IMG/VR virus record: IMGVR_UViG_3300022758_000225
Span: 1-22,421 of that record
DNA: 22,421 nt
Direction: 5' to 3' (one strand)
From: a virus
Taxonomy: Duplodnaviria > Heunggongvirae > Uroviricota > Caudoviricetes
A program made the position numbers and the translations under genes. Positions 1 to 22,421 of the stretch are shown here, in pieces (position 1 is the first letter of the stretch; each line of letters opens with the position of its first letter). Under the pieces are notes generated by a model that was not told the origin of the DNA, did not search any database, and saw only the letters and a list, made by a program, of their open reading frames with translations.

Positions 1-73
1 TGATTATTTGCCACCCATGCCCCCCAACGTTCAAGAACCATTTGAATATCACGCATCAACTGTCTCCACAAAA

Positions 74-487
74 TCAGGCCAGCACGCCAGTTGCCAGCGC
101 ACGATCGATAAAACGAAATATCAGCTCCAGCTGGGAGCCATACTTCTCTTCAAATGCCACGATATCCGCATGCAGCTCGTCGTGATGCTTTCTGCACAGA
201 GGCAACACAAAGAGGTCATGCGCTTTTGTACCCATTCCACCCTGACCGTGGCCTATCAGGTGGTGGGGATCATCAGCAGGCTTTCCACAACATGCACACG
301 GCTGCGTCTTAACCCAGCGCGTGTACTTTTCGTTAACCCAGCGGCGACGTTTTGGGCGTAACATAAAAGACTCCGGCGACTCCGGATCCACTTTCAGCGC
401 CAGCACCTTTTTCGCTTTATTCTGGATGATGCTGGTGGCCGGAACCGAAGGAACAAGGTCACTCTCCCGGGGTGACAGACGGCACAA
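74..487 (-). CDS. HNH-like Cys/His-motif protein (DUF968-like); probably the C-terminal part of a split ydfU-like nin-region gene
   Basis: 137-aa ORF with CACCG...HH...LPLCRKHHDELH motif typical of HNH/DUF968 proteins. Track start is TTG at 487. Overlaps upstream ORF 459..1070 by 29 nt in a different frame. Confidence 0.5.
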   Translation of the reverse strand: MCRLSPRESDLVPSVPATSIIQNKAKKVLALKVDPESPESFMLRPKRRRWVNEKYTRWVKTQPCACCGKPADDPHHLIGHGQGGMGTKAHDLFVLPLCRKHHDELHADIVAFEEKYGSQLELIFRFIDRALATGVLA

Positions 488-1070
488 CAGGCTTCGGTAA
501 TCTCAGTGCCTTACGGGCTGCACTTTCAGGTAAGGCATCCGCCAGATCATTACGAACCAGCCACCAGCACAGTTCCGGCATTGTCACAACGTGACTATCA
601 TCAAAACCGAGATCCCGACGCACGACGGACAACACCCAGCGGGCACAGTTATCCGTTGCCATTGATTCCAGCCGTTCCGTGAACTGATCGCGCAGCTGGT
701 TATCGCAGTGCCAGCACAGACGGATTGCGCCCGGCGCGTGACGCATTGTGGTCATGTTCTCGCTGTGCCAGTCGGAATGAGGCCACTGGCAGCCTTTTTC
801 ACGAAGTAACCAGCTTTCAAGACATTCCACGCCACCAGCACGACGGATCACTGCCTCATTGCGGAACACGGCCCGAACGGCAGGATCATCCGCCAGCGGT
901 TGTGATGCCGCCGGAACAGCACCACTGGCGAAAGATGAATAACTTTCCGGCTCAGGCTCCAGCAGGACACGCCCCTGCATAAACAGAGGCATCAGCTCTG
1001 AACCAGGCCTGAACAATACGATCCCCATACGCGGGGCAATTTCAGGGGTCAGTAGTGCTCTCACGGTCAC
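459..1070 (-). CDS. nin-region protein, probable N-terminal part of the same ydfU-like gene
   Basis: 203-aa ORF with GTG start at 1070, directly after the KilA-N gene stop (1072-1074). Family assignment is from recall only. Confidence 0.4.
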   Translation of the reverse strand: MTVRALLTPEIAPRMGIVLFRPGSELMPLFMQGRVLLEPEPESYSSFASGAVPAASQPLADDPAVRAVFRNEAVIRRAGGVECLESWLLREKGCQWPHSDWHSENMTTMRHAPGAIRLCWHCDNQLRDQFTERLESMATDNCARWVLSVVRRDLGFDDSHVVTMPELCWWLVRNDLADALPESAARKALRLPKPVVPSVTPGE

Positions 1071-1071
1071 C

Positions 1072-1881
1072 TCAATGAACGGTATCGAGCAGCTTTAACA
1101 GCTCAGGGAATCGGGATTCGAAGAAATGCGGCTGCGTCTCGCGCGGATTTGCGGGACTAGTGATGTTCTTGCCGAACATGCAGCCTTTCGCGGTCAGCGA
1201 CCAGAATTTTTTGATGTTGTTAATCGCGGTACGGCTGTATCGTTCGCGTTGTTCAACGATCCCCAGCTTCACCATCTGGTGATATGCCTGATTAGCCGTC
1301 AGGCGGATACCATACTGTTTCAGCAGTGCACTCAGTGACAGTGTCGGGCGACTTGAGCCATCGTGTGCATCAGCAGGAGCATCAATGGCATAGCGCGGTG
1401 CCAGATTCGGTAAGCCAACAGCCTCCTGGAGTTTCTGACAGGCACCAAGCACAGATGAGTTAGACAGGTTTAACTCCCGACGCATAAAGTCCAGCAGAAT
1501 CACACCAGCCTGCATCTTGTCAGCAGCCTGTCCGGATAATTTTTCCGGTGCGCTGGTTACCATGTCGAAAGTACGGATCACCTTCAGATGGAATGACGGG
1601 CTGATCCACATTGCATAGGCATACACCAGTTCCTTGCAGACATAAGTTCCCCGTTCATTTCCCCCATGAATCACACTCACCGGGTCAACACCCAAATTCT
1701 GGGTGTTGGTCAATTCATGAACAAGTTCAACAGTTTGTTGGCTGGAAAGAAACTTTCCTGGCTCCTTGGTTCTGGCATTTGCACCAGATGCTACTGCTGC
1801 GCGATGCAGATCGTTCAGGCTGTAACGCCCATAAGCATCACGACGAACTTCAATACCATCAATGACCATCAGATTATTCAT
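1072..1881 (-). CDS. KilA-N domain protein / phage antirepressor-like
   Basis: N-terminus MNNLMVIDGIEVRRDAYGRYSLNDLHRAA is KilA-N-like. ATG at 1881 is preceded by AGGAGA; the track ORF extends to 1914. Confidence 0.7.
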   Translation of the reverse strand: MNNLMVIDGIEVRRDAYGRYSLNDLHRAAVASGANARTKEPGKFLSSQQTVELVHELTNTQNLGVDPVSVIHGGNERGTYVCKELVYAYAMWISPSFHLKVIRTFDMVTSAPEKLSGQAADKMQAGVILLDFMRRELNLSNSSVLGACQKLQEAVGLPNLAPRYAIDAPADAHDGSSRPTLSLSALLKQYGIRLTANQAYHQMVKLGIVEQRERYSRTAINNIKKFWSLTAKGCMFGKNITSPANPRETQPHFFESRFPELLKLLDTVH

Positions 1882-1900
1882 ACTTCGTTTCTCCTCTTGA

Positions 1901-2290
1901 TCAGGCGGCTGCACCCGCCGTTTTCTCGTACTTACTGATGGTGATCTCGACCTTCCCTTTCGGGATAACCGGTCCCCACTCCACCAGCATTCTTTTCACC
2001 TGTCTGTCGTCTTCCCACACACCCGCGTGGGTCAACGCGTCAAACAGCGCCTTGTTATAGTTGTCCAGATCGCGGATCCGGTTATCCGGAGGAAACAACA
2101 CGATCTCCACTGAAGCAGGTGCCGACGTTGGTTTTGGCAGACGACGTAACTGCTCAACTATTGCTGCGCACGCCGCGCTCTGAAATTTTCGCCCCGCCGC
2201 GCTTATCAGGCTCTTACCAGCAAATGCCCCTTTGTTGGGGTGTCGCCAGTACGTGTTCACGCTGGGCGGGAAAGGCAGGATCAGCTTCAT
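1901..2290 (-). CDS. rusA: Holliday-junction resolvase RusA
   Basis: 129 aa with PPSVNTYWRH, DLDNYNKALFDAL and GVWEDDRQV motifs matching E. coli RusA. Start overlaps the upstream stop as ATGA. Confidence 0.85.
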   Translation of the reverse strand: MKLILPFPPSVNTYWRHPNKGAFAGKSLISAAGRKFQSAACAAIVEQLRRLPKPTSAPASVEIVLFPPDNRIRDLDNYNKALFDALTHAGVWEDDRQVKRMLVEWGPVIPKGKVEITISKYEKTAGAAA

Positions 2291-2613
2291 ACTTTCAGGC
2301 CTCTCTCATGTAACCAGTGGGTTGCACGCAGCCTGGCGTTTTCCTCACCGGCAAGCAGTGAGCGGATAATCCCGACCGCCTCGCTGTCGTCGTCCTTCAC
2401 CGCGGTATGAAGAGTGATACCCCGGGCCACGCCACGCTTTATCGTGATGACGCCTTTTTTCTCCAGTGCGCGAAGATGTTCCACCGCTGCATTCACTGAA
2501 CGGTATCCCAGCATGGTTGCCACCTCCTGATTGGTTGGCGGGAAGCCACGTTCTTTCTGGTAAGAAATCAGCATATCCAGCACCTGCTGCTGGCATTGAG
2601 TTAACGTCGTCAT
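2287..2613 (-). CDS. LexA N-terminal DNA-binding-domain protein lacking the S24 peptidase domain
   Basis: 108 aa; QQQVLDML...GFPPTNQEVATMLGYRSVNAAVEHLRALEKKGVI aligns by eye with the LexA winged-HTH domain. No Ala-Gly cleavage site or Ser/Lys dyad. ATGA overlaps at both ends. Confidence 0.7.
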   Translation of the reverse strand: MTTLTQCQQQVLDMLISYQKERGFPPTNQEVATMLGYRSVNAAVEHLRALEKKGVITIKRGVARGITLHTAVKDDDSEAVGIIRSLLAGEENARLRATHWLHERGLKV

Positions 2614-3263
2614 GCCGCCATCTCCCTGACCAGTTTTTCCGCCTGCTGGCGAACCTGCGCCAGAAACGCCTCACCACATGCCTCAAGTTCATCGCGCCCG
2701 ATGTAGCTGATTGCCGGTCCCTTCCAGGTCTTGTCGAAAACAGCAATAGCACCAGCGAAGAAAGCGCCTGTCGGCACCTGCTTCTCGTCCTTCGGTATAA
2801 ACCAGGCAGGCAGTTCAAAACCAATACGCCCGCGAATAAAAGCAATATGATCTGCATCTTCCGGCCACCACACTTCGCTGGTGGCCGCTTTGATCAGGAA
2901 AACATAGCGCCCGCCCTTATCACGCATGGCACTGGCATGTTTCATGATGTAACGCATGCCGGTGATGTATTGCCCCTCATGCTGACTGGCGCGGCTGTAT
3001 GGGGGATTACCAAAGGCAGCACCTTTAAGCTCCGCAAGACGTTCTGACCAGTCATGCGCCAGCGCGTTATCTTCCGCCGTGTAATACGCGGCACATTTGG
3101 CGTTATCACCGTCAGTAAACAGATCCAGAACAAACGGGCCAAACAGAGTGTTAATTCCCCAGAAAATGTTGTCCGGCGTGCGCCACTGATCGCCCACTTC
3201 CTTCAGTTCATGGGCTGGTTTGTTCCGCAGTTCCACCAGTGCCTGACAATATTTATTACTCAT
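2610..3263 (-). CDS. phage N6-adenine DNA methyltransferase (Dam-like orphan methylase)
   Basis: Contains the NPPY motif (FGNPPYS) and a DLFTDGDN region typical of phage N6-adenine methyltransferases. Preferred start is ATG at 3263, overlapping the upstream stop as TAATG; the track gives a GTG at 3296. Confidence 0.8.
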   Translation of the reverse strand: MSNKYCQALVELRNKPAHELKEVGDQWRTPDNIFWGINTLFGPFVLDLFTDGDNAKCAAYYTAEDNALAHDWSERLAELKGAAFGNPPYSRASQHEGQYITGMRYIMKHASAMRDKGGRYVFLIKAATSEVWWPEDADHIAFIRGRIGFELPAWFIPKDEKQVPTGAFFAGAIAVFDKTWKGPAISYIGRDELEACGEAFLAQVRQQAEKLVREMAA

Positions 3264-3745
3264 TAAGCCCCCACGTAATTCCCTGACAGATACCACTCTT
3301 CACCCGATGCTGCGCGCTTGCTGCTTTTCTGTAAGCACTGCTCACGACGCGCCAGAAAATTGTTTCGTTCTGGCTGGGAGTGGCTTTCACGGAATGCCGC
3401 CATCCACACCGTTGCAGCACGACGGTATAAGCCCCTGGACTCCAGTTCTTCAGCCTGGCGAATCACCCGGGGATCGTTAGTGCCGACATAGAAATTGCGC
3501 ACAGGTCTGGTTTCACGAACTGGTTGTGGTTCCGGCTCCTGCGCTCTCTCAGTCAGGCGCGGGAAATGTCTGCGTGTATCTCCTTCACAACGGTGAGCCA
3601 CACGCCCACTCTGACGTAACTTGCTTGCTGACTGCAGAACGCGCTGTCGTGAGTAACCTGCAAAAGCATCCGCAATGTCTCCGAAAGTACACCCCGGATG
3701 GGCTTCAATGAATTTCTGAACTTCATTCAAAAGACTCATGATCAC
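3263..3745 (-). CDS. putative DNA-binding regulator with PerC-like C-terminal region
   Basis: 160-aa ORF in an operon of overlapping genes. The segment RVIRQAEELESRGLYRRAATVWMAAF resembles PerC-family proteins, from recall only. Confidence 0.4.
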   Translation of the reverse strand: MIMSLLNEVQKFIEAHPGCTFGDIADAFAGYSRQRVLQSASKLRQSGRVAHRCEGDTRRHFPRLTERAQEPEPQPVRETRPVRNFYVGTNDPRVIRQAEELESRGLYRRAATVWMAAFRESHSQPERNNFLARREQCLQKSSKRAASGEEWYLSGNYVGA

Positions 3746-4332
3746 CCCCTGAATCCTACCGGGATCTGGCTGTAGTCCACGTTGTCGTAACTGGCTTTGA
3801 AGTACGGGTCTTCACGTTTTTCTGTGTGCGTGCTGACGGACGGCGATAAGCGCAGGGAAAGCTCATCCCATTTTTCCCTCAACTTCGACGGGCTGAGCAC
3901 GTTACGGTACCAGAACGGATCGCGGCTGACGCGGCTGTACATCTCGCAGATTTGTTTGTGAGTACGACCATCCTGCACACACATCAGGCGAATTTCGTTT
4001 GCCCATGCTGTCCAGTTCGGTTCTTTGGGACGAACCACCTCGCCGTCACATTCGGCGGCCTGCTCGTACAGGGCGATGATTTTTTTCCAGAGCCACTGTG
4101 CGCAGGTCAAATCATCCTGCGTTCCCCACTGGCGCTTTTTAGGGCTGAATACAACCGCATCAGGATGGCGAGTTAAAAACTCCTGTTCAGCCGTTTGCGT
4201 GTCCGGTTGCGAAGCGTCCGGACGAGAAGAGGTTTTATTCTCTGTAGTAATCTCTGTTGTATTCTCTGTAAGATCATTGGGCCATTTTGACCCGATGACA
4301 GCGTGTCGTTTTGAACCAATGGATCGTGTCAT
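3742..4332 (-). CDS. replication protein, C-terminal part (O-like linker plus C-terminal domain)
   Basis: 196 aa. N-terminus is low-complexity (TENTTEITTENKTSS) and is encoded by the iteron region. ATG overlaps the stop of the replisome-organizer ORF as ATGA. Function inferred from position and iteron linkage. Confidence 0.5.
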   Translation of the reverse strand: MTRSIGSKRHAVIGSKWPNDLTENTTEITTENKTSSRPDASQPDTQTAEQEFLTRHPDAVVFSPKKRQWGTQDDLTCAQWLWKKIIALYEQAAECDGEVVRPKEPNWTAWANEIRLMCVQDGRTHKQICEMYSRVSRDPFWYRNVLSPSKLREKWDELSLRLSPSVSTHTEKREDPYFKASYDNVDYSQIPVGFRG

Positions 4333-4408
4333 TTGCGCCCATCCATCAGGTCACTTTGACCCGATGGAGAAGTGCATTTTGACCTGATGGATTCGTTCAC
4401 TTTGACCT
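4285..4408. repeat. origin-of-replication iterons (about 5 direct copies of TTTGAC(C/A)YGATGG plus one inverted copy)
   Basis: Direct copies at 4285-4298, 4309-4322, 4355-4367, 4377-4390 and a partial copy at 4400-4408. An inverted copy (ccatcaggtca) lies at 4343-4353. Spacing is 22-24 bp. They sit inside the replication gene, as ori-lambda does inside O. Confidence 0.6.
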
Positions 4409-4733
4409 CTTCTAAAAGCTCACTTTCATAGTTGATCGTGTAGAAGTTGGTCATGTCACGCTTCGATTTATTGAGTTGCTCGCGACGCAAAACCCCAAGT
4501 GATTTCAGGCTTGCAAATGTGCGTTTCAGAGTGGACTCTGACCAGAACGGAAACTGCTCCAGCCACTGTTCTGTCGTGTTATAAACCCAGCGAATTCCGC
4601 CATGCTCAGTGCCTGAATTCGTTTCATTCAGCCAGTAATGAAGCTGCTGCAACACAATTGCCTCATTCAGACCAATACGGCATGCAAGATCACGATTTAT
4701 CACAATGGGCTGGGATGTCATTAACAGGCTCAT
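4329..4733 (-). CDS. phage replisome organizer, N-terminal iteron-binding domain (lambda O-like)
   Basis: 134 aa; the N-terminus [39 protein letters not shown] resembles replisome-organizer N-terminal domains. Its 3' end is encoded by the iterons. Confidence 0.6.
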   Translation of the reverse strand: MSLLMTSQPIVINRDLACRIGLNEAIVLQQLHYWLNETNSGTEHGGIRWVYNTTEQWLEQFPFWSESTLKRTFASLKSLGVLRREQLNKSKRDMTNFYTINYESELLEEVKVNESIRSKCTSPSGQSDLMDGRK

Positions 4734-4902
4734 GACCGACCTCTATTTCCCTGAATTTACGACGAAACTGTTCGAGCGGACTGAAGCATTCATGTTCATA
4801 GCCTTCACGGAGGTAGATAACCCGTTGTGTTTCCGGCTCCCAACGAATGACTCTGACGGGCACTCCGTAGTGATCTTTGAACCAGCGGTTAACTTGTCGC
4901 AA
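4690..4902 (-). CDS. small phage protein (DUF4222-like)
   Basis: 70-aa ORF with TTG start at 4902 preceded by a strong SD (AAGGAGA at 4906-4913 on the minus strand). Motif [12 protein letters not shown]. Its 3' end overlaps the replication gene start by 44 nt. Confidence 0.45.
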
Positions 4903-5081
4903 AGGACTGTCTCCTTCTGCCGGTTGAAATCACCCACAGCCCACTCTGCAAAGCTGTGGGTTACAATTTCCCTGTCACCTGGTACATTCACTGCATAGCA
5001 ATACTCCACCTTCGCTTTTCCACCCGGTACAGGAAGCGCAATCAGTTGCGAGCGACGGTAGTGTGTTGTTAAACTGTTCAT
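4743..5081 (-). CDS. hypothetical protein (gene model uncertain)
   Basis: ATG at 5081 with GGAG about 10 nt upstream. The 3' two-thirds overlaps the DUF4222-like gene in another frame and looks low-complexity, so the true product is probably shorter. Confidence 0.2.
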
Positions 5082-5147
5082 GCGTTAGTTTCTCCACAAC
5101 CAGAAGCAATCGACGCCACGACGCCCGGAGCTGCACACTCGCGGGCG

Positions 5148-5636
5148 TCACTCTTTTCTGGAGCGCAAAAGATTTTGTAGACCAGTGCTGCATGCTCCTG
5201 GAGCTTCGCAAATTGACAGATACAACTCATCATTAATTGCTGTCTGCTCGTGTGGCTCCACTACCCCATCTTCGATTGCCGAACGAATCTGCTTTGAGTA
5301 ACTCCCGATCTGTTCGATGACTTCCAGCAGGCGCTGGTTTATATCGGCGTTCTCTACTTCCTCAATTTCAGGAAGCGATACAAACACCCCACCAGCAGAC
5401 TGTGCGACAGCATCCGCAATGTAGTGAGTGCCAGCCGCGCGCTGTAAAATCATTGCCCATCCCAGCGGGAAAATCTGATCGCCATCTGCACGAAGGCGGT
5501 TGAATAAAGCGTTCTCTGTTACATCCAGCCACTCAGCAGCTTCAGCGTAACCCCCCGGCAACGCCGCGATAGTTTTTCTGACAGCTTTCACGTACCACTC
5601 AGGCTGTTTTTCCACTTTCCAGTGATGATTACCCAC
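5148..5636 (-). CDS. CII-like regulatory protein (CP76 / YdaT-like family)
   Basis: 162 aa with GTG start preceded by AGGAGG. Lies immediately downstream of the cro-like gene, opposite the repressor. Family assignment is from recall only. Confidence 0.5.
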   Translation of the reverse strand: MGNHHWKVEKQPEWYVKAVRKTIAALPGGYAEAAEWLDVTENALFNRLRADGDQIFPLGWAMILQRAAGTHYIADAVAQSAGGVFVSLPEIEEVENADINQRLLEVIEQIGSYSKQIRSAIEDGVVEPHEQTAINDELYLSICEAPGACSTGLQNLLRSRKE

Positions 5637-5732
5637 GGCTTACCTCCTGTTCCTGTGGTTTAAAACCCATTCTGGTTTTGGCTAGATTGAAAACGTGCCG
5701 GATAAAGAATCTGCATTTCGCTGATTTCACCC

Positions 5733-5921
5733 TTAAAAAAATTGGCCAGACGTTCTGCAAGATCGATAGATGGAATTTGTTCCAGTCTTTTCAATACGAC
5801 TCAGCGTCGCTGGATTGACCTGAACGCCAGCAGCAACATGCTGCAAAGTAAATCCGTGCGCCTTACGCACATTTCCGTAATGGTGATTGCATATTACCTC
5901 CACATATTGCGTGATGAGCAT
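5733..5921 (-). CDS. Cro-like HTH (XRE-family) regulator
   Basis: HTH signature LQHVAAGVQVNPATLSRIEKTG. Divergent from the repressor gene. Internal ATG at 5921 chosen because the track's TTG at 6017 would overlap the cI start; no obvious SD, so possibly leaderless. Confidence 0.45.
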   Translation of the reverse strand: MLITQYVEVICNHHYGNVRKAHGFTLQHVAAGVQVNPATLSRIEKTGTNSIYRSCRTSGQFF

Positions 5922-5970
5922 ATTATTTTCACGCAAATATTTTGCGCAAGTTGATTTGCTTAACGCGCAA
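5907..5970. promoter_or_regulatory. OR-like operator cluster and divergent promoters between the cro-like and cI-like genes
   Basis: Three 15-bp palindromic sites centred about 24 bp apart: TTGCgtgatgaGCAt (5907-5921), cGCAAatattTTGCg (5932-5946), TTGCttaacgcGCAA (5956-5970). TTGATT at 5951-5956 and TAATAA at 5982-5987 are candidate promoter hexamers. Confidence 0.5.
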
Positions 5971-5990
5971 TAAAGAAATGTAATAAACGC

Positions 5991-6684
5991 ATGAACATAG
6001 GAAACCGAGTCAGACAACTTCGCCAGGCGAAGAACATGAAAATCGCCGATCTCGCTGAAGCAATAGGAGTGGATGCGGCGAATATCTCACGCCTGGAAAC
6101 AGGTAAGCAGAAACAATTCACTGAACAAGCCCTGAGTAATATTGCCAGGAGCTTAGGTGTTGATATTGCTGATCTCTTTACCTCAGACGTCAAAAGTAAT
6201 ACTGTATGTAAAAACAGTATTAGTGAGGATGTTGCGCAGGTGAAGGATGTATTCCGTATTGAAATGCTGGATGTCAGTGCCAGTGCGGGAAATGGCCTTA
6301 TCCAGGGCGGTGATGTCATTGATGTGATTCATGCCATTGAATACAGAACTGATAATGCTGTATCGATGTTTTGGCGGACGGCCAGCCAATCACATTAAAG
6401 TTATCAACGTTCGTGGGGACAGTATGTGTCCAACCATTGAGCCAGGAGATCTCATCTTCGTTGATGTCAGTATCAATCAGTTTGATGGAGATGGTATCTA
6501 TGTATTTGGTTTTGATGATAAAATTTATGTCAAGCGACTGCAAATGATACCTGACAAACTACTGGTGATTTCTGATAACCAGATTTACCGTGAATGGGGA
6601 ATTACCAGCGAAAATGAACACCGGTTTATGGTCTTTGGAAAGGTCTTAATCAGCCAGTCACAAACCCTTAAGCGACACAATTAA
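5991..6684 (+). pseudogene. cI-like prophage repressor (XRE HTH plus S24 LexA-like peptidase domain) interrupted by a frameshift
   Basis: ORF 5991..6398 carries the HTH (IADLAEAIGVDAANISRLETGKQ) and an Ala-Gly site (SASAGNG). ORF 6331..6684 in the +1 frame carries the S24 motifs GDSMCPTIEPGD and KRL. Removing one T from the T4 run at 6369-6372 joins them as ...NAVSMFGGRPANHIKV.... Confidence 0.7.
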
Positions 6685-6704
6685 CCCTTACCTCCTCATC
6701 AATT

Positions 6705-6726
6705 AGCCACCCAAAGGTGGCTTTTC
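6705..6726 (+). terminator. intrinsic terminator downstream of the cI-like gene
   Basis: Stem agccacc / ggtggct with loop caaa, followed by TTTT, about 20 nt after the cI stop at 6682-6684. Confidence 0.5.
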
Positions 6727-6739
6727 ATTACCCTTTAAA

Positions 6740-6792
6740 TTGCATATCTCGCAACAAAAACACTTGCATAATGCGCAACTTCATTTTATCTT
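6740..6792 (+). promoter_or_regulatory. OL-like operators with candidate PL promoter
   Basis: Two TTGC-N7-GCAA sites (6740-6754 and 6764-6778), 24 bp centre to centre, the same motif as the OR sites. TTGCAT at 6764-6769, a 17-bp spacer and TATCTT at 6787-6792 form a candidate rightward promoter. Confidence 0.4.
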
Positions 6793-7222
6793 TCTTTCCA
6801 GACAAACAAACAAGGTACTAACAAAATTTGGTTGTAACACGGCGTATGGCACATGCGTCGTTAGCGGTCTGGGGACGTTAAAGGGGACAATCCACTCCTT
6901 GCTCGGGCAAACAAACCAGGTAGCCGGAATGTGCAAGTCAATGATGATGCTGATAAGACGCCTAACCAGCGTGGCGGTTCGGTTTGACACCTGGGAAGAG
7001 ACCAGGGTGCAACGATGAGGGCATTTATGGAACCGCGACAAAGTGTGGTGCCGTAACTGGCTAAGTGCTCTCAGCGTTGTGGTGAATGCGCAGGCTGATG
7101 CGCGAAAGACATTGCAGCTATTGCGGAAAAGAGCTGTTCGGCGGGGCAATTAAACGCCCGTGAGAGTCTGAAATAACCGCAAGCCGGAGATCAGCACCGG
7201 TCACCACAACAGCCACTGCTTT

Positions 7223-7270
7223 AGCGGTACCAGTTTGTACACTTGCTTCCGGCTGGTACCGCTCTTTTTT
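7223..7270 (+). terminator. intrinsic terminator in the early-left leader (tL-like)
   Basis: Perfect 11-bp stem agcggtaccag (7223-7233) / ctggtaccgct (7253-7263) with a 19-nt loop, followed by T6 at 7265-7270. Confidence 0.5.
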
Positions 7271-7407
7271 ACAAAACAGAGAAGAGCATCACCGGACGAC
7301 GGGCTCATAACCCAATCCATCCGGGCGGCTGCCACCGCAGGTGTTCTTCTCTGTTTTGTGGAGAAACCAACCGACCTTGCAGGGTCGATATGATGAGGAG
7401 CAGCAAA

Positions 7408-7770
7408 ATGGCTAGCGTACGCAGTACTGATGTGCAGGCATTTATCGGGGAGCTGGACGGCGGCGTATTTGAAACCAAAATCGGCGCTGTTCTCAGTGAA
7501 GTCGCTTCCGGTGTGATGAACACGAAAAACAAAGGTAAGGTCTCGCTCAACCTGGAAATCGAACCATTTGATGAGAACCGTGTGAAAATCAAACACAAAC
7601 TCTCATATGTTCGCCCGACTAACCGCGGGAAAATTTCCGAAGAAGACACCACCGAAACGCCGATGTATGTCAATCGCGGTGGTCGCCTGACTATTCTGCA
7701 GGAAGACCAGGGACAATTACTGACTCTTGCCGGTGAACCTGACGGAAAACTCCGCGCAGCAGGTCATTAA
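7408..7770 (+). CDS. hypothetical early-left protein (first gene after the leader; yfdP-like by position and size)
   Basis: ATG at 7408 preceded by GAGGAG at 7395-7400; 120 aa. No similarity to lambda N. Track ORF 7243..7770 is an upstream extension without an RBS. Confidence 0.5.
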   Translation: MASVRSTDVQAFIGELDGGVFETKIGAVLSEVASGVMNTKNKGKVSLNLEIEPFDENRVKIKHKLSYVRPTNRGKISEEDTTETPMYVNRGGRLTILQEDQGQLLTLAGEPDGKLRAAGH

Positions 7771-7835
7771 TATCGTTCTTAATTAACTGATTATTTATCT
7801 CATCACTGAATATCTTAATATAGTGAGGACTTATT

Positions 7836-8659
7836 ATGTCTCAGAACTTAGACGCAACCGCAATTAATCAAATCCATGCCCTTATTTCTGCTCAGGGTGT
7901 TAATGAAATTATCAGTAAGATTGGTGCCGATGCTGTGGCATTGCCTGAGAATTTCCGCATTCATGATCTGGAAAAATTTAATTTAAATCGCTTCCGTTTC
8001 CGTGGTGCGCTTTCCACTGCCAGCATCGATGACTTTACCCGTTATTCTAAAGATCTTGCAGATGAAGGCACCCGCTGCTTTATCGATGCCGATAATATGC
8101 GAGCCATCAGTGTGCTTAACCTGGGTACTATTGATGAACCAGGTCACGCAGATAACACCGCCACTCTCAACTGAAAAAGACAGCACCGTTCTCTGCCCTG
8201 CTGTCTGTTAATGGCGAGCGTAACTCCCAGAAGTCACTGGCAGAATGGATTGAAGACTGGGCCGACTATCTTGTGGGCTTTGATGCTAATGGTGACGCTA
8301 TTAAGGCAACAAAAGCGGCTGCGGCAGTCCGTAAAATCACGATTGAAGCAAACCAGACCGCTGATTTTGAAGATAATGACTTCAGCGGCAAACGCTCTTT
8401 GATGGAGTCTGTCGAAGCGAAAACCAAAGACATTATGCCAGTAGCATTTGAGTTTAAATGCGTTCCGTTTGAAGGCCTGAAAGAACGTCCGTTTAAATTA
8501 CGCCTCAGCATTATCACTGGTGATCGTCCTGTACTGGTTCTGCGCATTATTCAGCTGGAAGCGGTGCAGGAAGAAATGGCTAACGAATTTCGTGATCTGC
8601 TTGTTGAGAAATTCAAAGACAGCAAAGTAGAAACCTTTATTGGTACTTTCACCGCCTGA
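7836..8659 (+). pseudogene. DUF2303-like (yfdQ-like) gene split by a frameshift
   Basis: N-part 7836..8174 (frame 0) stops at 8172-8174. The C-part frame is open from 8156 and continues to 8659 (track ORF begins at GTG 8273). The two frames overlap in 8156-8172; joined length is about 274 aa. Confidence 0.5.
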
Positions 8660-8786
8660 TTTCATTACTGCAAATGCCCCTGCGGGGGCATTTATGGAAA
8701 CGTAATTGACTCAATAATCGCCAGATGGTGAGGGCTTCCTTTTACCAGAATTCAGCGCGGTGCAGCGCATATACGTGGAGAACAAA

Positions 8787-9323
8787 ATGTCATTTATTAA
8801 AACTTTTTCCGGGAAGCATTTTTATTATGACAGGATAAATAAAGACGACATCGTTATTAACGATATCGCGGTTTCTCTTTCAAATATCTGTCGCTTTGCA
8901 GGACATCTTTCACATTTCTACAGCGTCGCCCAACATGCGGTGCTTTGCAGCCAACTGGTACCGCAGGAATTTGCTTTTGAAGCGTTAATGCATGATGCAA
9001 CAGAAGCGTATTGCCAGGACATCCCGGCGCCACTGAAACGCCTTCTTCCTGACTATAAACGGATGGAAGAAAAAATAGACGCCGTAATCCGTGAGAAATA
9101 CGGGTTACCACCAGTTATGAGTACACCCGTGAAATATGCCGATCTCATCATGCTGGCAACCGAACGTCGCGATCTCGGGCTTGATGATGGCTCTTTCTGG
9201 CCTGTACTGGAAGGCATCCCGGCAACAGAGATGTTCAACGTGATTCCACTGGCTCCGAGCCATGCCTACGGGATGTTTATGGAACGTTTTAACGAGTTAT
9301 CGGAGTTACGCAAATGCGCATGA
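8787..9323 (+). CDS. HD-domain phosphohydrolase (yfdR-like)
   Basis: His-Asp motif in EALMHDATEAYCQDIP plus HLSHFYSVAQH. ATG at 8787 preceded by GGAG gives 178 aa; the track ORF starts at 8760. Confidence 0.65.
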   Translation: MSFIKTFSGKHFYYDRINKDDIVINDIAVSLSNICRFAGHLSHFYSVAQHAVLCSQLVPQEFAFEALMHDATEAYCQDIPAPLKRLLPDYKRMEEKIDAVIREKYGLPPVMSTPVKYADLIMLATERRDLGLDDGSFWPVLEGIPATEMFNVIPLAPSHAYGMFMERFNELSELRKCA

Positions 9324-9730
9324 ATGTTTTCGAAATGGAAGGGTTTCTTCGCGGGAAATGTGTACCACGAGATCTGAAAGTGAATGAAACAAATGCTGAG
9401 TATCTGGTGCGTAAATTTGCTGAAGCGGAGGCCAAGTGCGCGGCGCTGGCGGCGGAGAATGAGCTGGCTCGTAAAGCTGTTCAGGCATTCTGTGAGGTTG
9501 TTGGCGACAACACTGAGATTATCTCCGTGTTGGTTGGGCGAGATGGCGTTCTGGTTATTTTGGAGGCCATGAAGGCAACAGGAAATATGTCAGCCACCGA
9601 CGCTTTCCTGGCTGAAGTACGTGCGCAGGGTGTTGAATTGTTGCGCGAGCATCCTGCTATCCAGATTTGCTCTTTAACGCACGTATGCGACGAGTTCGCC
9701 GCCCAGCTTCGTAAAGGAGGCAACCAGTGA
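9314..9730 (+). CDS. hypothetical protein
   Basis: 138-aa ORF. ATG at 9314 preceded by GGAG; overlaps the HD gene stop by 10 nt. Confidence 0.45.
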   Translation: MRMNVFEMEGFLRGKCVPRDLKVNETNAEYLVRKFAEAEAKCAALAAENELARKAVQAFCEVVGDNTEIISVLVGRDGVLVILEAMKATGNMSATDAFLAEVRAQGVELLREHPAIQICSLTHVCDEFAAQLRKGGNQ

Positions 9731-10026
9731 CTGTATGTCTTATTGATAAACGTCGACGTGGGCAACAAATACCATCTGTTGAAATGCCGAATCACACATG
9801 GTTTTGCGTACTTGATATCGATGGTATGGATACGTTGATCGACACTCGTCATTACTGCGATACCGCAACAGCTACTCCGGCGAAAGCAAAGAAAATGGCT
9901 GCTCTGATAGAAAACTGGACTCCACCTGATGGTTGGTGCAATGGGAATGATCGGGATTGGCATGAAAAAATGAAGAGCTATATCTGCGATTTCTTACGTA
10001 AATGCAACGGATTCAGGGTGATGTGA
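9727..10026 (+). CDS. hypothetical Cys-rich small protein
   Basis: 99 aa. GTG start overlapping the upstream stop as GTGA, preceded by a strong AGGAGG at 9713-9718. Confidence 0.45.
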   Translation: MTVCLIDKRRRGQQIPSVEMPNHTWFCVLDIDGMDTLIDTRHYCDTATATPAKAKKMAALIENWTPPDGWCNGNDRDWHEKMKSYICDFLRKCNGFRVM

Positions 10027-10027
10027 C

Positions 10028-10564
10028 ATGAGCAATATTGACTATCAGGCACTGCGTGAGGCGGCAGAACGTGCAATTCCGGCAATGGAACGCCTGTTAA
10101 TGTTGCCAGCTGATGATGATTTGTTAAGTGAACAGGAACTTAAAGATTACGGTGTGGATATTGATGCGCTCAACGCCTTCAAATTTCTGAACGGACCAGA
10201 AACCGTGCTGGCACTGCTGGATGAACGGGAAAGAAACCAGCAATACATCAAACGCCGTGACCAGGAGAACGAGGATATTGCGCTTACGGTTGGGAAGCTG
10301 CTCGTTGAGCTTGAAGCAGCAAAATCAAAACTCAACGAGCAGCGCGAGTATTACGAGGGAGTTATCTCTGATGGGTGCAAGCGTATTGCTGAACTGGAAG
10401 CGCGGGAAGTTCAATTACCGACTCGCTACGACCTTCGATATGGACACCCGATAAATGCAGATGAGCGACATGTCATGATACCTAAAGAAAATGGCAGTTG
10501 GCTTTACCTGATTGACCTGGAACACGCATTACGCGTCGCTGACATTCGCATCAAAGGAGAGTGA
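10028..10564 (+). CDS. Ead/Ea22-like early protein
   Basis: 178 aa. N-terminus MSNIDYQALREAAERA and a coiled-coil-like middle section resemble Ea22-like proteins of lambdoid early-left regions, from recall only. Confidence 0.45.
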   Translation: MSNIDYQALREAAERAIPAMERLLMLPADDDLLSEQELKDYGVDIDALNAFKFLNGPETVLALLDERERNQQYIKRRDQENEDIALTVGKLLVELEAAKSKLNEQREYYEGVISDGCKRIAELEAREVQLPTRYDLRYGHPINADERHVMIPKENGSWLYLIDLEHALRVADIRIKGE

Positions 10565-10565
10565 T

Positions 10566-10829
10566 ATGGCAACTTTGACAAAAAAAGAACAAGCATGGTT
10601 GAGCGAATTACAGGACGTTCTTGATCGCTGCCCATCACCGAAAAAAATTGGTTTTTACACCATTGGCGATAAAAGCATTTACCTGTATGACCTGCGCCGC
10701 ATGGATGAAATCATGGAGGCTCTTGATAATCGTTCGTCAATGGATTGGTGTGTTGCTGTTCATGATATGAATGCCGGATTTGATGAAAAGATTTTATTCC
10801 CCTCATCAGTTGAAAGTACAGCAGGATAA
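10566..10829 (+). CDS. hypothetical protein
   Basis: ATG at 10566 two nt after the upstream stop, preceded by AAAGGAGAG; 87 aa. The track ORF extends upstream to 10512. Confidence 0.45.
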   Translation: MATLTKKEQAWLSELQDVLDRCPSPKKIGFYTIGDKSIYLYDLRRMDEIMEALDNRSSMDWCVAVHDMNAGFDEKILFPSSVESTAG

Positions 10830-10839
10830 GGACTAACAC

Positions 10840-11412
10840 ATGACCACTATTACCAAAGAGCGACTGCTGACAATCAGGCAGTGGCGCGAAACATACGGAC
10901 CTGGTAGCAACGTTGTACTGCCAGCAGAAGAAGCGGAAGAACTGGCACGAATTGCTCTGGCATCGCTGGAAGCAGAACCTGTAAGCCAAACTTACAACTT
11001 GCCACAAACGCACTTTGAACAGGTTGCTGACCTTTACGAAATGCAATTTGATGACGGACGCACTTGTGCCTTTCATACTGATGCGCAAAAGGCTGCGCAA
11101 TGGCTTCGGGCATGCGACGGAAACAGGGTTCAGGAATACGTGAAACTGGAGCGACTGCAGAACGCGCTATCGGGCAACTCTCCGGTAATTCCGGATAGTT
11201 GGATAAGCTGTAGTGAGCGAATGCCGGAAAAGAATCAGAACGTGCTTATTTCGGTGAATTTCGATAGCTCTCTGGTTGAACCGCTAATATGCTCCGCACG
11301 CTATACCGGAAGCACCTTTCGGCGCGGAGATGCAACGATTAAGCCGGGTAATGGTATTGAGCAGGCAACCCACTGGATGAAATTACCGGAACCACCGCAG
11401 GAGGTGAAGTGA
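10840..11412 (+). CDS. DUF551-domain protein
   Basis: C-terminal WISCSERMP...THWMKLPEPP matches the DUF551 signature common in lambdoid prophages. Confidence 0.6.
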   Translation: MTTITKERLLTIRQWRETYGPGSNVVLPAEEAEELARIALASLEAEPVSQTYNLPQTHFEQVADLYEMQFDDGRTCAFHTDAQKAAQWLRACDGNRVQEYVKLERLQNALSGNSPVIPDSWISCSERMPEKNQNVLISVNFDSSLVEPLICSARYTGSTFRRGDATIKPGNGIEQATHWMKLPEPPQEVK

Positions 11413-11984
11413 TGAACAACTTAATGATCGACCTTGAGACGATGGGGAAAAATAAGGATGCACCGATCGTTTCCATTGGCGCGGTGTTCTTCACTCCAGA
11501 AACCGGAGACATCGGACAAGAATTCTATACGGTTGTTAGCCTGGAAAGTGCTATGGGGCAAGGAGCTACACCTGACGGCGATACCATCCTGTGGTGGTTG
11601 AAACAAAGCCCTGAAGCACGAGCTGCAATCTGTATTGATGATACTTTGTCGATCAGCGATGCTCTCTCAGAACTAAATCATTTCATTAACCGGCACGCAG
11701 CCAATACGAAATATTTAAAAGTCTGGGGTAACGGGGCCACCTTCGACAACGTAATTTTACGTGGAGCTTATGAGCGAGCAGGACAAATCTGCCCGTGGGC
11801 ATACTGGAATGACCACGATGTACGCACGATCGTTACGCTTGGGCGTTCCATCGGATTCGACCCCAAAATGGACATGCCTTTCGATGGCGAACGGCACAAC
11901 GCCCTGGCTGATGCTCGTCATCAGGCAAAATATGTTTCCGCTATCTGGCAGAAATTAATTCCTGCCACCAGCACAGAATTATGA
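11412..11984 (+). CDS. DnaQ-like 3'-5' exonuclease (DEDDh family)
   Basis: MIDLETMG (Exo I motif) and ERHNALADARHQ (Exo III H-x4-D motif). AGGAGG at 11399-11404. Confidence 0.65.
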   Translation: MNNLMIDLETMGKNKDAPIVSIGAVFFTPETGDIGQEFYTVVSLESAMGQGATPDGDTILWWLKQSPEARAAICIDDTLSISDALSELNHFINRHAANTKYLKVWGNGATFDNVILRGAYERAGQICPWAYWNDHDVRTIVTLGRSIGFDPKMDMPFDGERHNALADARHQAKYVSAIWQKLIPATSTEL

Positions 11985-12020
11985 TTTTCCCGGGTGCAGC
12001 CGGTTTTGATGGAGAAAATT

Positions 12021-12302
12021 ATGAACACCTTGTTTTTACTGATGGCTGAATTCAATACCCCTAACATTGAACTCTCAGCAGTTAGCCAAAAGTACTTTGG
12101 CATGAGTCCAGCCACGGCAGAAGCAAAAGCAAACGCTTGTAAGTTGCCCGTTCCAACATATCGCATCGGCACATCACAAAAAGCAAAACGTTGCATCAAT
12201 ATTCAGGATCTTGCGGAATACATAGACAAAAGACGAGAAGAAGGACGTATCGAGTGGGAACAGGTCAGAACAGGCAAACAGAAGGGCAAAGAACATCACT
12301 AA
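12021..12302 (+). CDS. PrtN-family DNA-binding protein (pyocin-activator / excisionase-like)
   Basis: MNTLFLLMAEFN...IQDLAEYIDKRR closely resembles the N-terminus of P. aeruginosa PrtN. ATG at 12021 preceded by GGAG. Confidence 0.6.
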   Translation: MNTLFLLMAEFNTPNIELSAVSQKYFGMSPATAEAKANACKLPVPTYRIGTSQKAKRCINIQDLAEYIDKRREEGRIEWEQVRTGKQKGKEHH

Positions 12303-12304
12303 AG

Positions 12305-12331
12305 AAAAAACCCGCCTAAAGGCGGGTTTTC
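12305..12331. terminator. bidirectional intrinsic terminator
   Basis: aaaaaaCCCGCCtaaaGGCGGGtttt: GC-rich stem flanked by an A-run and a T-run, between convergent genes ending at 12302 and 12350. Confidence 0.6.
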
Positions 12332-12349
12332 AAAAAGCACCAGCTATGA

Positions 12350-12523
12350 TCATGCTGCTTTGCGACGACGAAGCTTACCCTGCTGCTCTTTACCAGAGAC
12401 AGTAGCGTGAGTGAACGCATTAGGAGCAGCCTTCATCAGAACTTCAACAGCAGCACCCATACCTGCGAATGCTTTCATTGTGTCGAACTTAACCTGTGGC
12501 TTGGTTGCTTTTTGATCTTTCAT
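12350..12523 (-). CDS. small lysine-rich hypothetical protein (57 aa; not in the supplied ORF track)
   Basis: Hand translation of the minus strand gives MKDQKATKPQVKFDTMKAFAGMGAAVEVLMKAAPNAFTHATVSGKEQQGKLRRRKAA. ATG at 12523 preceded by GGGAG at a 7-nt spacing. Confidence 0.4.
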   Translation of the reverse strand: MKDQKATKPQVKFDTMKAFAGMGAAVEVLMKAAPNAFTHATVSGKEQQGKLRRRKAA

Positions 12524-12719
12524 AGAAAACTCCCGAGACAGTAAAGGCGTCTCTAACCCTCTCTTTAAAGCTAGCTTGTTTAGCTAACTTATGCCAATCG
12601 ATCATGTCGATTGGTGACATCGTTTCTTAGTAGTTTAAGCACAAAACGACTGCCATAGATGTACCTTTAAGGTAATCTGGACGGGTATCCTACAATTTGT
12701 AGACCCTTCTCGTCTATAC

Positions 12720-13256
12720 CTACTGAGCAAATTTAAGAAAGATATCCTGCAGCTCATCAATGACTGCAGACATCACATAACCGCACTGTTCCATGCGGAA
12801 ACCAAAAGACTCGTAATACTGCACCAGTTCTGGTACTGGCTCTACAATGTGGACAACTTTACATTCAACAGCTTTACAAAATATAAAAGCACTCATAAGA
12901 GTGAGTAAAACCATGCGCCCTTTCAATGGGTGAGATTCATCTTCTCTAGAAAACCTTTCGATCATATGGATACGAAAGATGTTTTCTTCAACCCCATAAA
13001 CACAAATTGCTGCTCCTGATGGTATTCCCTGAACCCGACCTTGCTGAACAAGTTTTATGCAGAACTCATACTTTTCTCTGGAGTTGCCATAGGTGCTTAA
13101 CGCATAGTCCCATTCAAGCTCACCATAGCCACCACACAGAATCTTGTAATCATCATCACTGAGCGGACCAACAGCAAGAGGTAAGCCGACATGATCAATA
13201 ATCAACTGGATATTGTTACGTACAGATTGACCTATCTCGTCTAGGGTAAGCATCAT
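12720..13256 (-). CDS. GNAT-like acetyltransferase-fold protein (moron candidate)
   Basis: 178 aa. KGRMVLLTLMS and ELVQYYESFGF resemble GNAT motifs A and B. Opposite strand to its neighbours and visibly AT-rich. Fold call is tentative. Confidence 0.45.
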   Translation of the reverse strand: MMLTLDEIGQSVRNNIQLIIDHVGLPLAVGPLSDDDYKILCGGYGELEWDYALSTYGNSREKYEFCIKLVQQGRVQGIPSGAAICVYGVEENIFRIHMIERFSREDESHPLKGRMVLLTLMSAFIFCKAVECKVVHIVEPVPELVQYYESFGFRMEQCGYVMSAVIDELQDIFLKFAQ

Positions 13257-13536
13257 AGACTCTCAAGCGGAACACTAAAAATCTCATTATATCTCATTCT
13301 GATGCCCCGCATGGATTACACCTTGAAATGAAAACACCGGGTTCCCAATAGGCTCCCACAAAGTGTATAACTACTTGTTTTTCAAAAACGGTACATCCTA
13401 TCGAGCATAGGAGCAATGCTAAACCGAGAACTCCAGTAAGCGCCAGTTTTTTCAGGCATCACGCTGGTTTGATTAGTTTTCTGTATTTCAGGATTATCGT
13501 GCATTTTTGAACATTTCAGGCTATTTTTCTCGCGTT

Positions 13537-21600: not shown

Positions 21601-22324
21601 TACGCCCGCGAAGATGATAATTACGGCTCACCTGCTGGCTGCCGAACTGTTCCGAGTCCACCTGTACGCCGACCAGTGCCGTGTTCGGGTAGCACTGTTT
21701 CACATCGATGATTTCAGTGTATGACGACCAGAGCGTTTTGTTCTGCAGCTGGTCTGTGGTGCTGTCCGGCGTCATCCTGCGCATCCGGATGTTGAACGGG
21801 CGCGGCGGCAGGTTACCCACCACCACCGAGGCCAGATACTGCGAGGTGGTTTTGCCCTTAATGGTGATGTCTTTTTCCGTCACCCAGCCACCGTTACGCT
21901 GTATCTGAACCAGCAGGCGGACTTCCGACGGATTCCGGTCCCCCTTTGAGGTGGTTTCCACCAGTGCCTGCACACCGAAGGTAAAGCGCAGACGGTCAAT
22001 GTTTGCCGACGTGATGGTCCGGGTGATCGGCGTGTCATATTTCACTTCCGTACCCAGCACCGTCTCGGAGCCGGAGGATTCAAATCCCTCCGGCGGAGTC
22101 TGCTCCTGCTCACCTGCCCGGAACACCACCGTTACGCCGGAGATGTTGGTATTCCCCTCACTGTCCAGCACCGGTGTACTGTTCAGCAGCACGCTTTTTA
22201 AGCCATCCACCGGACCTTCAACCGGCCCTTCACTGATGGCATCGATCACACTCAGCAACTGCGTGGACTTCAGATTGTCCTTCGCTTCGCGCGGGGTATG
22301 CCCCTTACTGCTGCCTTTACCCAT
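18628..22324 (-). pseudogene. J: tail tip / host-specificity protein J, interrupted by single-base frameshifts
   Basis: The first ~800 aa of ORF 19370..22324 are near-identical to lambda J. The segment encoded 20046->19870 is out of frame; the alternative frame gives KSARYLGT...YVRSVN...GKSAFVE...GEGYL, matching J. ORF 18628..19395 carries the J C-terminus. Breaks at T4 20043-20046, C6 19865-19870 and T5 19409-19413. Confidence 0.8.
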
Positions 22325-22384
22325 TCGTCATGCTCCATAAACGACAAAACCGCCCGGAGGCGGTTTCACATAAAATATTTTGCA

Positions 22385-22421
22385 TCATCGACCAATCATC
22401 ACAACCTGACCACCATCCCCA
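22385..22421 (-). CDS. 3' end of the upstream tail gene (I-like position), partial
   Basis: Open minus-strand frame running off the window edge, stopping at 22385-22387 about 60 nt upstream of the J start. Identity not verifiable from 12 codons. Confidence 0.25.
   Translation of the reverse strand, partial: GDGGQVVMIGR

What the first reader, a model, noticed from the sequence alone, without database searches (positions are those of the whole stretch)
6331..6398. Immunity repressor is frameshifted between its HTH domain and its LexA-like peptidase domain
Removing one T from the T4 run at 6369-6372 gives a continuous ~230-aa CI/LexA-type repressor (...NAVSMFGGRPANHIKVINVRGDSMCPTIEPGD...). As written, the N-terminal product ends 11 residues after the switch and lacks the catalytic and dimerisation domain. 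That product would be non-cleavable by RecA and probably a weak repressor. The alternative is a homopolymer sequencing error.
Basis: seen in the sequence. Interest (0 to 1): 0.6.

Follow-up and report, generated by a model that had tools for sequence, protein, structure and literature searches.

The report
Phage repressor split by sequencing-type indel
The repressor gene of this lambda-like E. coli phage really is broken by one extra T in the sequence as written, but the break is one of 14 single-base length errors found in no related genome, so it is almost certainly a sequencing artefact and not biology.

Summary
ORF 5991-6398 (135 aa, Cro/C1 HTH) and ORF 6331-6684 (117 aa, Peptidase_S24) fuse into one 230-aa protein if one T is removed from TTTT 6369-6372. 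That protein is 100% identical to WP_001020632.1, the cI-type repressor of mEp460-like lambdoid phages that integrate at dusA.

The biological reading (a truncated, non-inducible repressor) is not supported. The T4 allele occurs in none of 625 matching complete E. coli records. An exact T4 30-mer search found nothing in IMG/VR, GTDB genomes or JGI metagenomes. Neither truncated product exists among about 15 billion proteins. The T3 allele and the intact protein occur in 87 IMG/VR contigs and on at least 1000 contigs.

Against its nearest relatives the window has no substitutions outside the att junction, over about 17 kb. It has 14 single-base indels, 13 of them in homopolymer runs. Besides cI, these split cro (three times), cII/YmfL, the replication protein, DUF968, YfdQ and the tail protein J. 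Yet the DNA is in the excised, attP-joined phage order.

Homologues from 99.6% down to about 27% identity are single continuous ORFs. This is an ordinary, known repressor with a homopolymer length error. Interest is low.

The parts
5991..6684 (+). cI-type immunity repressor gene. It is 694 nt as written and 693 nt (230 aa) after removing one T. It has an N-terminal Cro/C1 HTH, a linker with a conserved S-A-G motif (residues 98-100), and a C-terminal S24 autopeptidase domain with Ser144 and Lys181.
   Evidence: 100% identical to WP_001020632.1; Ser144 and Lys181 invariant, including LexA and lambda cI.
5991..6398 (+). ORF1 as written, 135 aa. Residues 1-127 are native (HTH, linker and the start of the S24 domain). 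Eight out-of-frame residues (WRTASQSH) and a stop follow.
6331..6684 (+). ORF2 as written, 117 aa. Only 6373-6684 (cI residues 128-230) is native coding sequence. The first 14 codons, from the ATG at 6331, are an out-of-frame reading of cI codons 114-127.
6369..6372 (+). TTTT run. Every related sequence examined has TTT here. This is the frameshift site.
   Evidence: one-base gap against PMV-1; none of 625 E. coli records is identical across the site.
5629..5892 (-). Divergently transcribed cro-like HTH gene (86 aa in relatives). In the window it carries three +1 insertions (5665, 5791, 5874) and stops after 9 codons.
   Evidence: and direct reading.
5078..5636 (-). cII-position gene ymfL (185 aa in relatives). 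It is frameshifted by an extra C at 5209.
   Evidence: (annotated cII in SfII and Stx2a phages).
5907..5970 (.). cI/cro intergenic control region. It holds TTGC-N7-GCAA palindromes at 5907-5921 (1 mismatch) and 5956-5970 (exact), which are candidate OR operators. An extra T at 5929 lies between them.
   Evidence: The operator role is inferred and was not tested.
6705..6778 (.). Terminator-like hairpin just after cI (6705-6722), followed by two exact TTGC-N7-GCAA palindromes (6740-6754, 6764-6778). These are candidate OL operators.
   Evidence: Inferred.

Best explanation
The gene is the ordinary, already catalogued cI-type repressor of an mEp460/SfII-immunity lambdoid phage that integrates at dusA. 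It has an N-terminal HTH that binds operators flanking the gene. Its C-terminal S24 Ser-Lys autopeptidase and dimerisation domain would self-cleave, probably at Ala99-Gly100, when RecA* is present, and that would induce the prophage.

The extra T at 6369-6372 is a base-calling or assembly length error in a homopolymer. It is one of 14 such errors in this stretch. The real phage almost certainly encodes the intact 230-aa protein.

What is shown:
- the domain content;
- the identity to the intact protein;
- the uniqueness of the T4 allele;
- the indel-only difference pattern.

What is inferred:
- that the cause is sequencing error (no reads were available);
- the cleavage site;
- the operator assignment.
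For: 1. Identity. The corrected protein is 230/230 identical to WP_001020632.1. That exact protein sits in a 1451-member cluster seen on at least 1000 contigs.

2. Uniqueness.
- None of 625 matching complete E. coli records is identical across the site; the best differ by the single gap.
- The T4 30-mer has 0 hits in IMG/VR, GTDB genomes and JGI metagenomes.
- The T3 30-mer has 87 hits in IMG/VR, and 79 of those carry the complete 230-aa ORF.
- Neither truncated product is on record.

3. Error signature.
- Window 1-13417 against the PMV-1 prophage shows 10 one-base gaps. The only mismatches are 3 at the att junction.
- The J-gene part (18914-22420) against strain N56 shows 4 one-base gaps and no substitutions.
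- 13 of the 14 indels are in homopolymer runs, although only 16.8% of bases lie in runs of 3 or more.
- Each window allele is absent from all 92 related loci, while the corrected alleles occur in up to 90.
- From general knowledge, not tested here: base substitutions outnumber indels about ten to one among spontaneous E. coli mutations. An indel-only spectrum is therefore not an evolutionary one.

4. Viability. The indels split J, the replication protein, cro (three times), cII, DUF968 and YfdQ. Each piece is about 100% identical to the reference protein. Yet the window is in the excised, attP-joined phage gene order, like mEp460. A phage lacking all of these could not have been propagated.

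5. Selection on the corrected frame.
- MF(G/D)GR around the site, Ser144 and Lys181 are conserved in homologues of 39-84% identity.
- 167 of 198 phage homologues are one continuous reading frame across both domains.
Against: - No reads or quality values could be inspected, so the error is inferred from comparison only.
- Real slippage mutations also favour homopolymers.
- Six of the 14 indels, all insertions, cluster in 1164 bp covering cII, cro, OR and cI (scan-statistic P about 0.012). Homopolymer density is not higher there. A uniform error process does not predict this. I attribute it to a locally poor or low-coverage patch of the assembly, which is an assumption.
- A phage found in excised form is also what a clear-plaque cI mutant would look like.
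Confidence: 0.88

Rival explanations
1. This is a genuine +1 slippage mutation in cI, giving a clear-plaque or immunity-defective variant. The phage would make only residues 1-127 plus 8 aberrant residues. That product keeps the HTH and the Ala-Gly site. It lacks the Ser144/Lys181 dyad and the dimerisation surface. It would therefore repress weakly, could not self-cleave, and lysogeny would be unstable.
For: The frameshift is really in the sequence. T runs are slippage-prone. The window is in excised phage order, which fits lytic growth of a cI mutant. cI-null clear-plaque mutants arise readily in lambdoid phages (general knowledge).
Against: The allele is unique among thousands of relatives. 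It is accompanied by 13 other indels with no substitutions outside the att junction. At least the ones in J, cro and the replication gene cannot be real in a propagating phage. Nothing distinguishes the cI indel from those.
Confidence: 0.08
2. All 14 indels are real. The element would be a decaying or mutagenised phage whose lysis-lysogeny switch (cII, cro, OR, cI) and structural genes have been knocked out by an indel-specific process.
For: Six insertions cluster in the 1.16-kb immunity module (P about 0.012). There is an insertion-versus-deletion bias inside versus outside the cluster (Fisher P about 0.03).
Against: No substitutions accompany the 14 indels over about 17 kb outside the att junction. 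The attP-joined configuration argues against an old resident remnant. No related locus shares any of the indels. No known natural process yields only +/-1 changes in short runs of 2-6 bases.
Confidence: 0.03
3. This is programmed +1 ribosomal frameshifting on A-UGU-UUU-GGC: tRNA-Phe would slip from U1U2U3 to U2U3U4. The phage would then make both an HTH-only and a full-length repressor from one gene.
For: The four-U run makes a +1 re-pairing of tRNA-Phe geometrically possible, and the +1 frame continues as the native GGRPANH... (direct reading).
Against: No homologue conserves the site; all have T3 and a single ORF. No stop or rare codon sits in the A site (it is UGG). No Shine-Dalgarno-like stimulator lies upstream. 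A run of 4 is too short for transcriptional slippage (general knowledge).
Confidence: 0.01

Closest known systems
WP_001020632.1, the 'XRE family transcriptional regulator' / prophage repressor of mEp460-like phages (mEp460 gp038, PhiR63_1 cI, Stx2a_1447 CI, SfII CI; ST64B Sb38 at 83.5%)
   Same: The corrected window protein is 100% identical to WP_001020632.1 and 99.6% identical to the mEp460 repressor. The neighbours are also the same: divergent cro, cII/ymfL, then the yfdP-yfdQ-yfdR side.
   Different: The only difference is the extra T at 6369-6372, which splits the ORF in this sequence.
Lambda cI / E. coli LexA (S24 self-cleaving repressors)
   Same: It has an N-terminal DNA-binding HTH and a C-terminal Peptidase_S24 domain. 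The G-x-S-M serine and the V/F-K-R/K-L lysine align with LexA Ser119/Lys156 and lambda cI Ser149/Lys192. An Ala-Gly sits in the linker.
   Different: Identity to LexA and lambda cI is only 19-22%. The HTH is Cro/C1 (XRE) type, whereas LexA has a winged helix. The Ala-Gly alignment to the LexA and cI cleavage sites is ambiguous. Self-cleavage was not tested.
Homopolymer-length errors of pyrosequencing, semiconductor or long-read assemblies
   Same: The differences are single-base insertions and deletions. 13 of 14 lie in mononucleotide runs. No substitutions accompany them outside the att junction. Many ORFs are split into pieces that each match the reference perfectly.
   Different: The platform and coverage of the source are unknown. 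One indel (5209, +C) is not in a run. Six indels cluster in 1.16 kb.

Membership tests
cI/LexA-type self-cleaving repressors (HTH + Peptidase S24) | N-terminal helix-turn-helix DNA-binding domain | tested here: met
   HTH_26, HTH_31 and HTH_3 match residues 3-64 at E 1e-11 to 1e-10.
cI/LexA-type self-cleaving repressors (HTH + Peptidase S24) | C-terminal Peptidase_S24 domain on the same polypeptide | tested here: inconclusive
   As written, the domain is on a second ORF. After removing one T it is contiguous (PF00717, residues 104-218, E 6e-19) and identical to the intact protein in relatives. Whether the real DNA carries T3 cannot be decided without reads.
cI/LexA-type self-cleaving repressors (HTH + Peptidase S24) | Ser-Lys catalytic dyad | tested here: met
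   Ser144 (GDSM) and Lys181 (VKRL) are invariant columns in alignments that include E. coli LexA and lambda cI. Both lie downstream of the frameshift.
cI/LexA-type self-cleaving repressors (HTH + Peptidase S24) | Ala-Gly (or Cys-Gly) scissile bond in the linker | tested here: inconclusive
   S-A-G at residues 98-100 is conserved in all six phage homologues aligned. MAFFT, however, places the LexA and lambda Ala-Gly opposite Q105-G107, so the correspondence is not settled.
cI/LexA-type self-cleaving repressors (HTH + Peptidase S24) | RecA*-stimulated autocleavage and operator binding | not testable with these tools
   This needs biochemistry or an induction assay. The candidate operators (TTGC-N7-GCAA at 5956, 6740 and 6764) are pattern matches only.
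Programmed ribosomal frameshift sites | Slippery site and two-frame layout conserved among homologues | tested here: not met
   No relative has the T4 run or a split ORF: 0 of 625 E. coli records, 0 of 87 IMG/VR loci, and none of the 198 phage homologues examined.
Sequencing/assembly homopolymer indel artefacts | Indel-only differences from near-identical references, concentrated in mononucleotide runs and unique to one record | tested here: met
   There are 14 one-base indels. No substitutions occur outside the att junction over about 17 kb. 13 of the 14 are in runs. None of the 14 window alleles occurs in the 92 related loci.
Sequencing/assembly homopolymer indel artefacts | Read evidence contradicting the consensus call | not testable with these tools
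   No reads, quality values or platform information are available for the window.

The most novel reading that the evidence does not exclude
The cI frameshift, and the other five +1 insertions packed into the 1.16-kb immunity module (cII, cro three times, OR, cI), are real. The phage's whole lysis-lysogeny switch would then have been taken out by a localised, insertion-only slippage process. cI would survive only as an HTH-only, non-cleavable fragment.
Probability: 0.03. Interest if true: 0.5.

Novelty: not a real feature. Interest (0 to 1): 0.06.

Why it matters
It matters mainly as quality control. This stretch carries at least 14 homopolymer-type length errors that split seven genes. Any 'pseudogene', 'split gene' or 'frameshift' call in this window should be distrusted until it is checked against reads or against the intact relatives (the PMV-1 and N56 prophages, mEp460).

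If the frameshift were real, it would be a routine clear-plaque-type cI mutation and not a new regulatory design.

Tried and rejected
- Programmed +1 frameshift or transcriptional slippage: rejected. The T4 site and the two-ORF layout are absent from every homologue, and no stimulatory elements are visible.
- Separate expression of the S24 domain from the ATG at 6331: rejected. Those 14 codons are an out-of-frame reading of cI, and the 117-aa product exists nowhere else.
- Rfam scan of the whole window: no family reached its gathering score.
- Finding the source record or any assembly sharing the allele: nothing found.
  - The exact 30-mer gave no hits in IMG/VR, GTDB genomes or JGI metagenomes.
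  - An exact-protein look-up of the 135-aa product among gene positions found nothing, and neither truncated product is in the protein clusters.
- Explaining the clustering of indels in the immunity region by homopolymer density or GC content: it does not work. Run density is flat along the window, so the clustering (P about 0.012) remains unexplained.
- Fetching E. coli RS218 to place sRNA-17: the record is not in the collection. I used the paper's supplementary alignment instead.
- Operator motif enrichment window-wide: TTGC-N7-GCAA with up to 1 mismatch is not enriched overall (16 observed against 16.2 expected). Only the placement of three of the four exact copies next to cI is suggestive.

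Full report
**What is in the sequence**

On the + strand, ORF 5991-6398 (135 aa) overlaps ORF 6331-6684 (117 aa) in a different frame.
- The first ORF matches the Cro/C1-type HTH families HTH_26, HTH_31 and HTH_3 at E about 1e-11.
- The second matches Peptidase_S24 at E 1e-18.
- Removing one T from the TTTT run at 6369-6372 yields a 230-aa protein with both domains.
- That protein is 230/230 identical to WP_001020632.1, annotated as a 693-bp CDS in E. coli PMV-1 and many other strains.

- The aberrant tail is 8 residues (WRTASQSH), not 11.
- The break lies inside the S24 domain, not between the domains. The Pfam match starts at residue 104 and the conserved S-A-G is at residues 98-100. The shift is at codon 128, which is 16 residues before Ser144.

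**Context**

The window is a lambdoid phage read from Q towards J on the reverse of the usual map. The gene order is:
- Q, DUF968, KilA-N, RusA, a small S24 protein, a methyltransferase, PerC and a replication protein;
- cII (ymfL) and cro, then, divergently, cI;
- yfdP/Q/R, an exonuclease and PrtN;
- attP at about 13400-13417 and an integrase (13593-14690);
- tail fibre, lom and J.

In E. coli PMV-1 and N56 the same element is a prophage inserted at the 5' end of dusA. In the window the two prophage ends are joined, as in the mEp460 virion genome, which is 98.1% identical across the junction. The immunity region is shared with mEp460, PhiR63_1, phiSTEC1575-Stx2k, Stx2a_1447, 1720a-02 and, at 90.7%, SfII. 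Those records annotate cI, cII and cro there.

**Is the frameshift shared by anything else?**

No.
- An 81-bp query centred on the site matched 625 complete E. coli records. None was 99% identical or better, and the best differ by exactly the one-base gap.
- The exact 30-mer with T4 has 0 hits in IMG/VR, in the 185,579-species GTDB genome set and in the JGI metagenome contigs.
- The T3 version has 87 hits in IMG/VR alone. Of those, 79 contain the complete 230-aa ORF, three have an open 239-codon stretch without the MNIGN start, and five are cut by contig ends.
- The intact protein belongs to a 1451-member cluster seen on at least 1000 contigs. Neither the 135-aa nor the 117-aa product exists among about 15 billion proteins or the indexed gene positions.
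- By tblastn against 50,697 phage genomes, 167 of 198 homologous records cover at least 80% of the protein. Every listed homologue is one continuous piece, from 99.6% down to about 27% identity.

**The frameshift is not alone**

Window 1-13417 aligned to the PMV-1 prophage shows 10 one-base gaps. The only mismatches are 3 at the att junction. The gaps are:

| Position | Change |
|---|---|
| 472 | +G |
| 4334 | -T |
| 5209 | +C |
| 5665 | +A |
| 5791 | +T |
| 5874 | +T |
| 5929 | +T |
| 6372 | +T |
| 7270 | +T |
| 8170 | -A |

In the J gene (18914-22420), which has no substitutions against strain N56, there are four more: 19413 -T, 19414 -T, 19865 +C and 20042 -T.

- Thirteen of the 14 lie in mononucleotide runs, although only 16.8% of bases are in runs of 3 or more.
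The corrected allele is present in up to 90.
- By tblastn, J, DUF968, the replication protein, cII/YmfL, cro (three frames), cI and YfdQ are each split across reading frames. The pieces are about 100% identical to the reference proteins.

**Interpretation**

An evolutionary history that yields 14 indels and no substitution outside the att junction in about 17 kb is not credible. From general knowledge, not tested here, spontaneous substitutions outnumber indels about tenfold in E. coli, and they still outnumber them in mismatch-repair mutants.

A phage that had simultaneously lost J, its replication protein and cro could not be propagated. Yet the DNA is in excised phage configuration.

The corrected frame is also the one under selection. 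MF(G/D)GR around the site, Ser144 (GDSM) and Lys181 (VKRL) are conserved in homologues of 39-84% identity. The two catalytic residues also align with those of LexA and lambda cI.

The simplest account is that the window comes from an error-prone sequence with homopolymer length miscalls, and that the real phage encodes the intact 230-aa repressor. I give this a confidence of 0.88. It is an inference from comparison, because no reads could be seen.

**How the real thing most likely works** (inferred from family knowledge, not tested)

- The repressor binds, through its HTH, to operators flanking its gene. Three of the four exact TTGC-N7-GCAA palindromes in the window lie at 5956-5970 (cI/cro intergenic) and at 6740-6754 and 6764-6778 (just after the cI terminator-like hairpin at 6705-6722). 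A one-mismatch copy lies at 5907-5921.
- The S24 domain provides dimerisation and RecA*-stimulated self-cleavage, probably at Ala99-Gly100. That would induce the prophage.
- Had the truncation been real, the product would keep the HTH and the Ala-Gly site. It would lack the Ser-Lys dyad and the dimerisation surface.

**Rivals**

1. A genuine cI slippage mutant of the clear-plaque type (0.08). This is possible in principle and compatible with the excised form. Nothing, however, separates this indel from the 13 others.
2. All indels real (0.03). The only point in its favour is clustering. Six indels, all insertions, fall within 1164 bp covering cII, cro, OR and cI (scan-statistic P about 0.012). 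The insertion-versus-deletion contrast with the rest of the window has Fisher P about 0.03. Homopolymer density does not explain the clustering. I attribute it to a locally poor patch of the assembly, but it remains formally unexplained.
3. Programmed +1 frameshifting on UUU-U (0.01). The site is not conserved and no stimulators are visible.

**Comparison with what is known, and novelty**

The gene is a known protein (WP_001020632.1; the mEp460 'prophage repressor'; 83.5% identical to ST64B Sb38). It is a standard member of the cI/LexA HTH + S24 class.
- HTH: met.
- S24 domain: met after correction.
- Ser-Lys dyad: met.
- Ala-Gly site: present, but its alignment to the LexA and cI sites is ambiguous.
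- Cleavage and operator binding: not testable here.

The frameshift itself is best classed as not a real feature, and interest is low. Its practical value is as a warning that every split gene in this window needs checking against reads.

Noticed in passing
window 472, 4334, 5209, 5665, 5791, 5874, 5929, 7270, 8170, 19413, 19414, 19865, 20042: There are thirteen further single-base indels relative to near-identical prophages (PMV-1, N56). They come with no substitutions outside the att junction. They split DUF968, the replication protein, cII/ymfL, cro (three times), yfdQ and J. None is shared by any of the 92 related loci.
   Followed up: yes
window 5209-6372: Six of the 14 indels, all +1 insertions, cluster in the 1.16-kb immunity module (scan-statistic P about 0.012). 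Homopolymer density and GC content are not unusual there. T runs are hit 9 times against 2 for A runs on the + strand (P about 0.07). This is unexplained and may reflect a low-coverage or single-strand-read patch.
   Followed up: partly
window about 7076-7268, - strand: The published ArcA-modulated sRNA-17 of E. coli K1 RS218 maps here, in the non-coding gap between cI and yfdP. It is 193 nt and lies in an mEp460-like prophage (PMC7719688). A 39-nt stretch near its 5' end, taken from the paper's supplementary alignment, matches window 7224-7262 on the - strand exactly. The 3' limit is extrapolated from the 193-nt length. The indel at 7270 lies at the sRNA's 5' edge. Rfam has no family for it.
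   Followed up: partly
window 5907-5921, 5956-5970, 6740-6754, 6764-6778: TTGC-N7-GCAA palindromes flank cI on both sides. Three of the four exact copies in the window lie here, so they are candidate OR and OL operators. The motif is not enriched window-wide when one mismatch is allowed.
   Followed up: partly
window about 13400-13417 and 13593-14690 (+): This is an attP-type junction. Left of it the window matches one end of the PMV-1 prophage (next to zur). Right of it the window matches the other end (integrase next to dusA in N56). The window is therefore an excised or virion-order phage genome that integrates into the 5' end of dusA.
   Followed up: partly
window 2287-2613 (-): A stand-alone 108-aa ORF in the nin-like region corresponds to WP_000210170.1. 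That protein is annotated 'LexA family transcriptional regulator' in PMV-1, which suggests a free-standing LexA/S24-like protein with no HTH in the same phage. I did not scan its domains, and its role was not examined.
   Followed up: no
L003 24238-25001 (E. coli PMV-1, just outside the window beyond Q): The PMV-1 copy of this prophage carries, directly downstream of Q, a subtilase-family AB5 toxin binding subunit and a scabin-related ADP-ribosyltransferase. This looks like a pertussis-like AB5 toxin cargo. It is not contained in the window.
   Followed up: no
L094 (Klebsiella phage 1 LV-2017, KY271401.1): The cI homologue (71% identical) is one continuous 230-codon frame by tblastn. The record, however, annotates only the last 86 codons as 'CI repressor'. 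This is an annotation quirk, not a split gene.
   Followed up: partly
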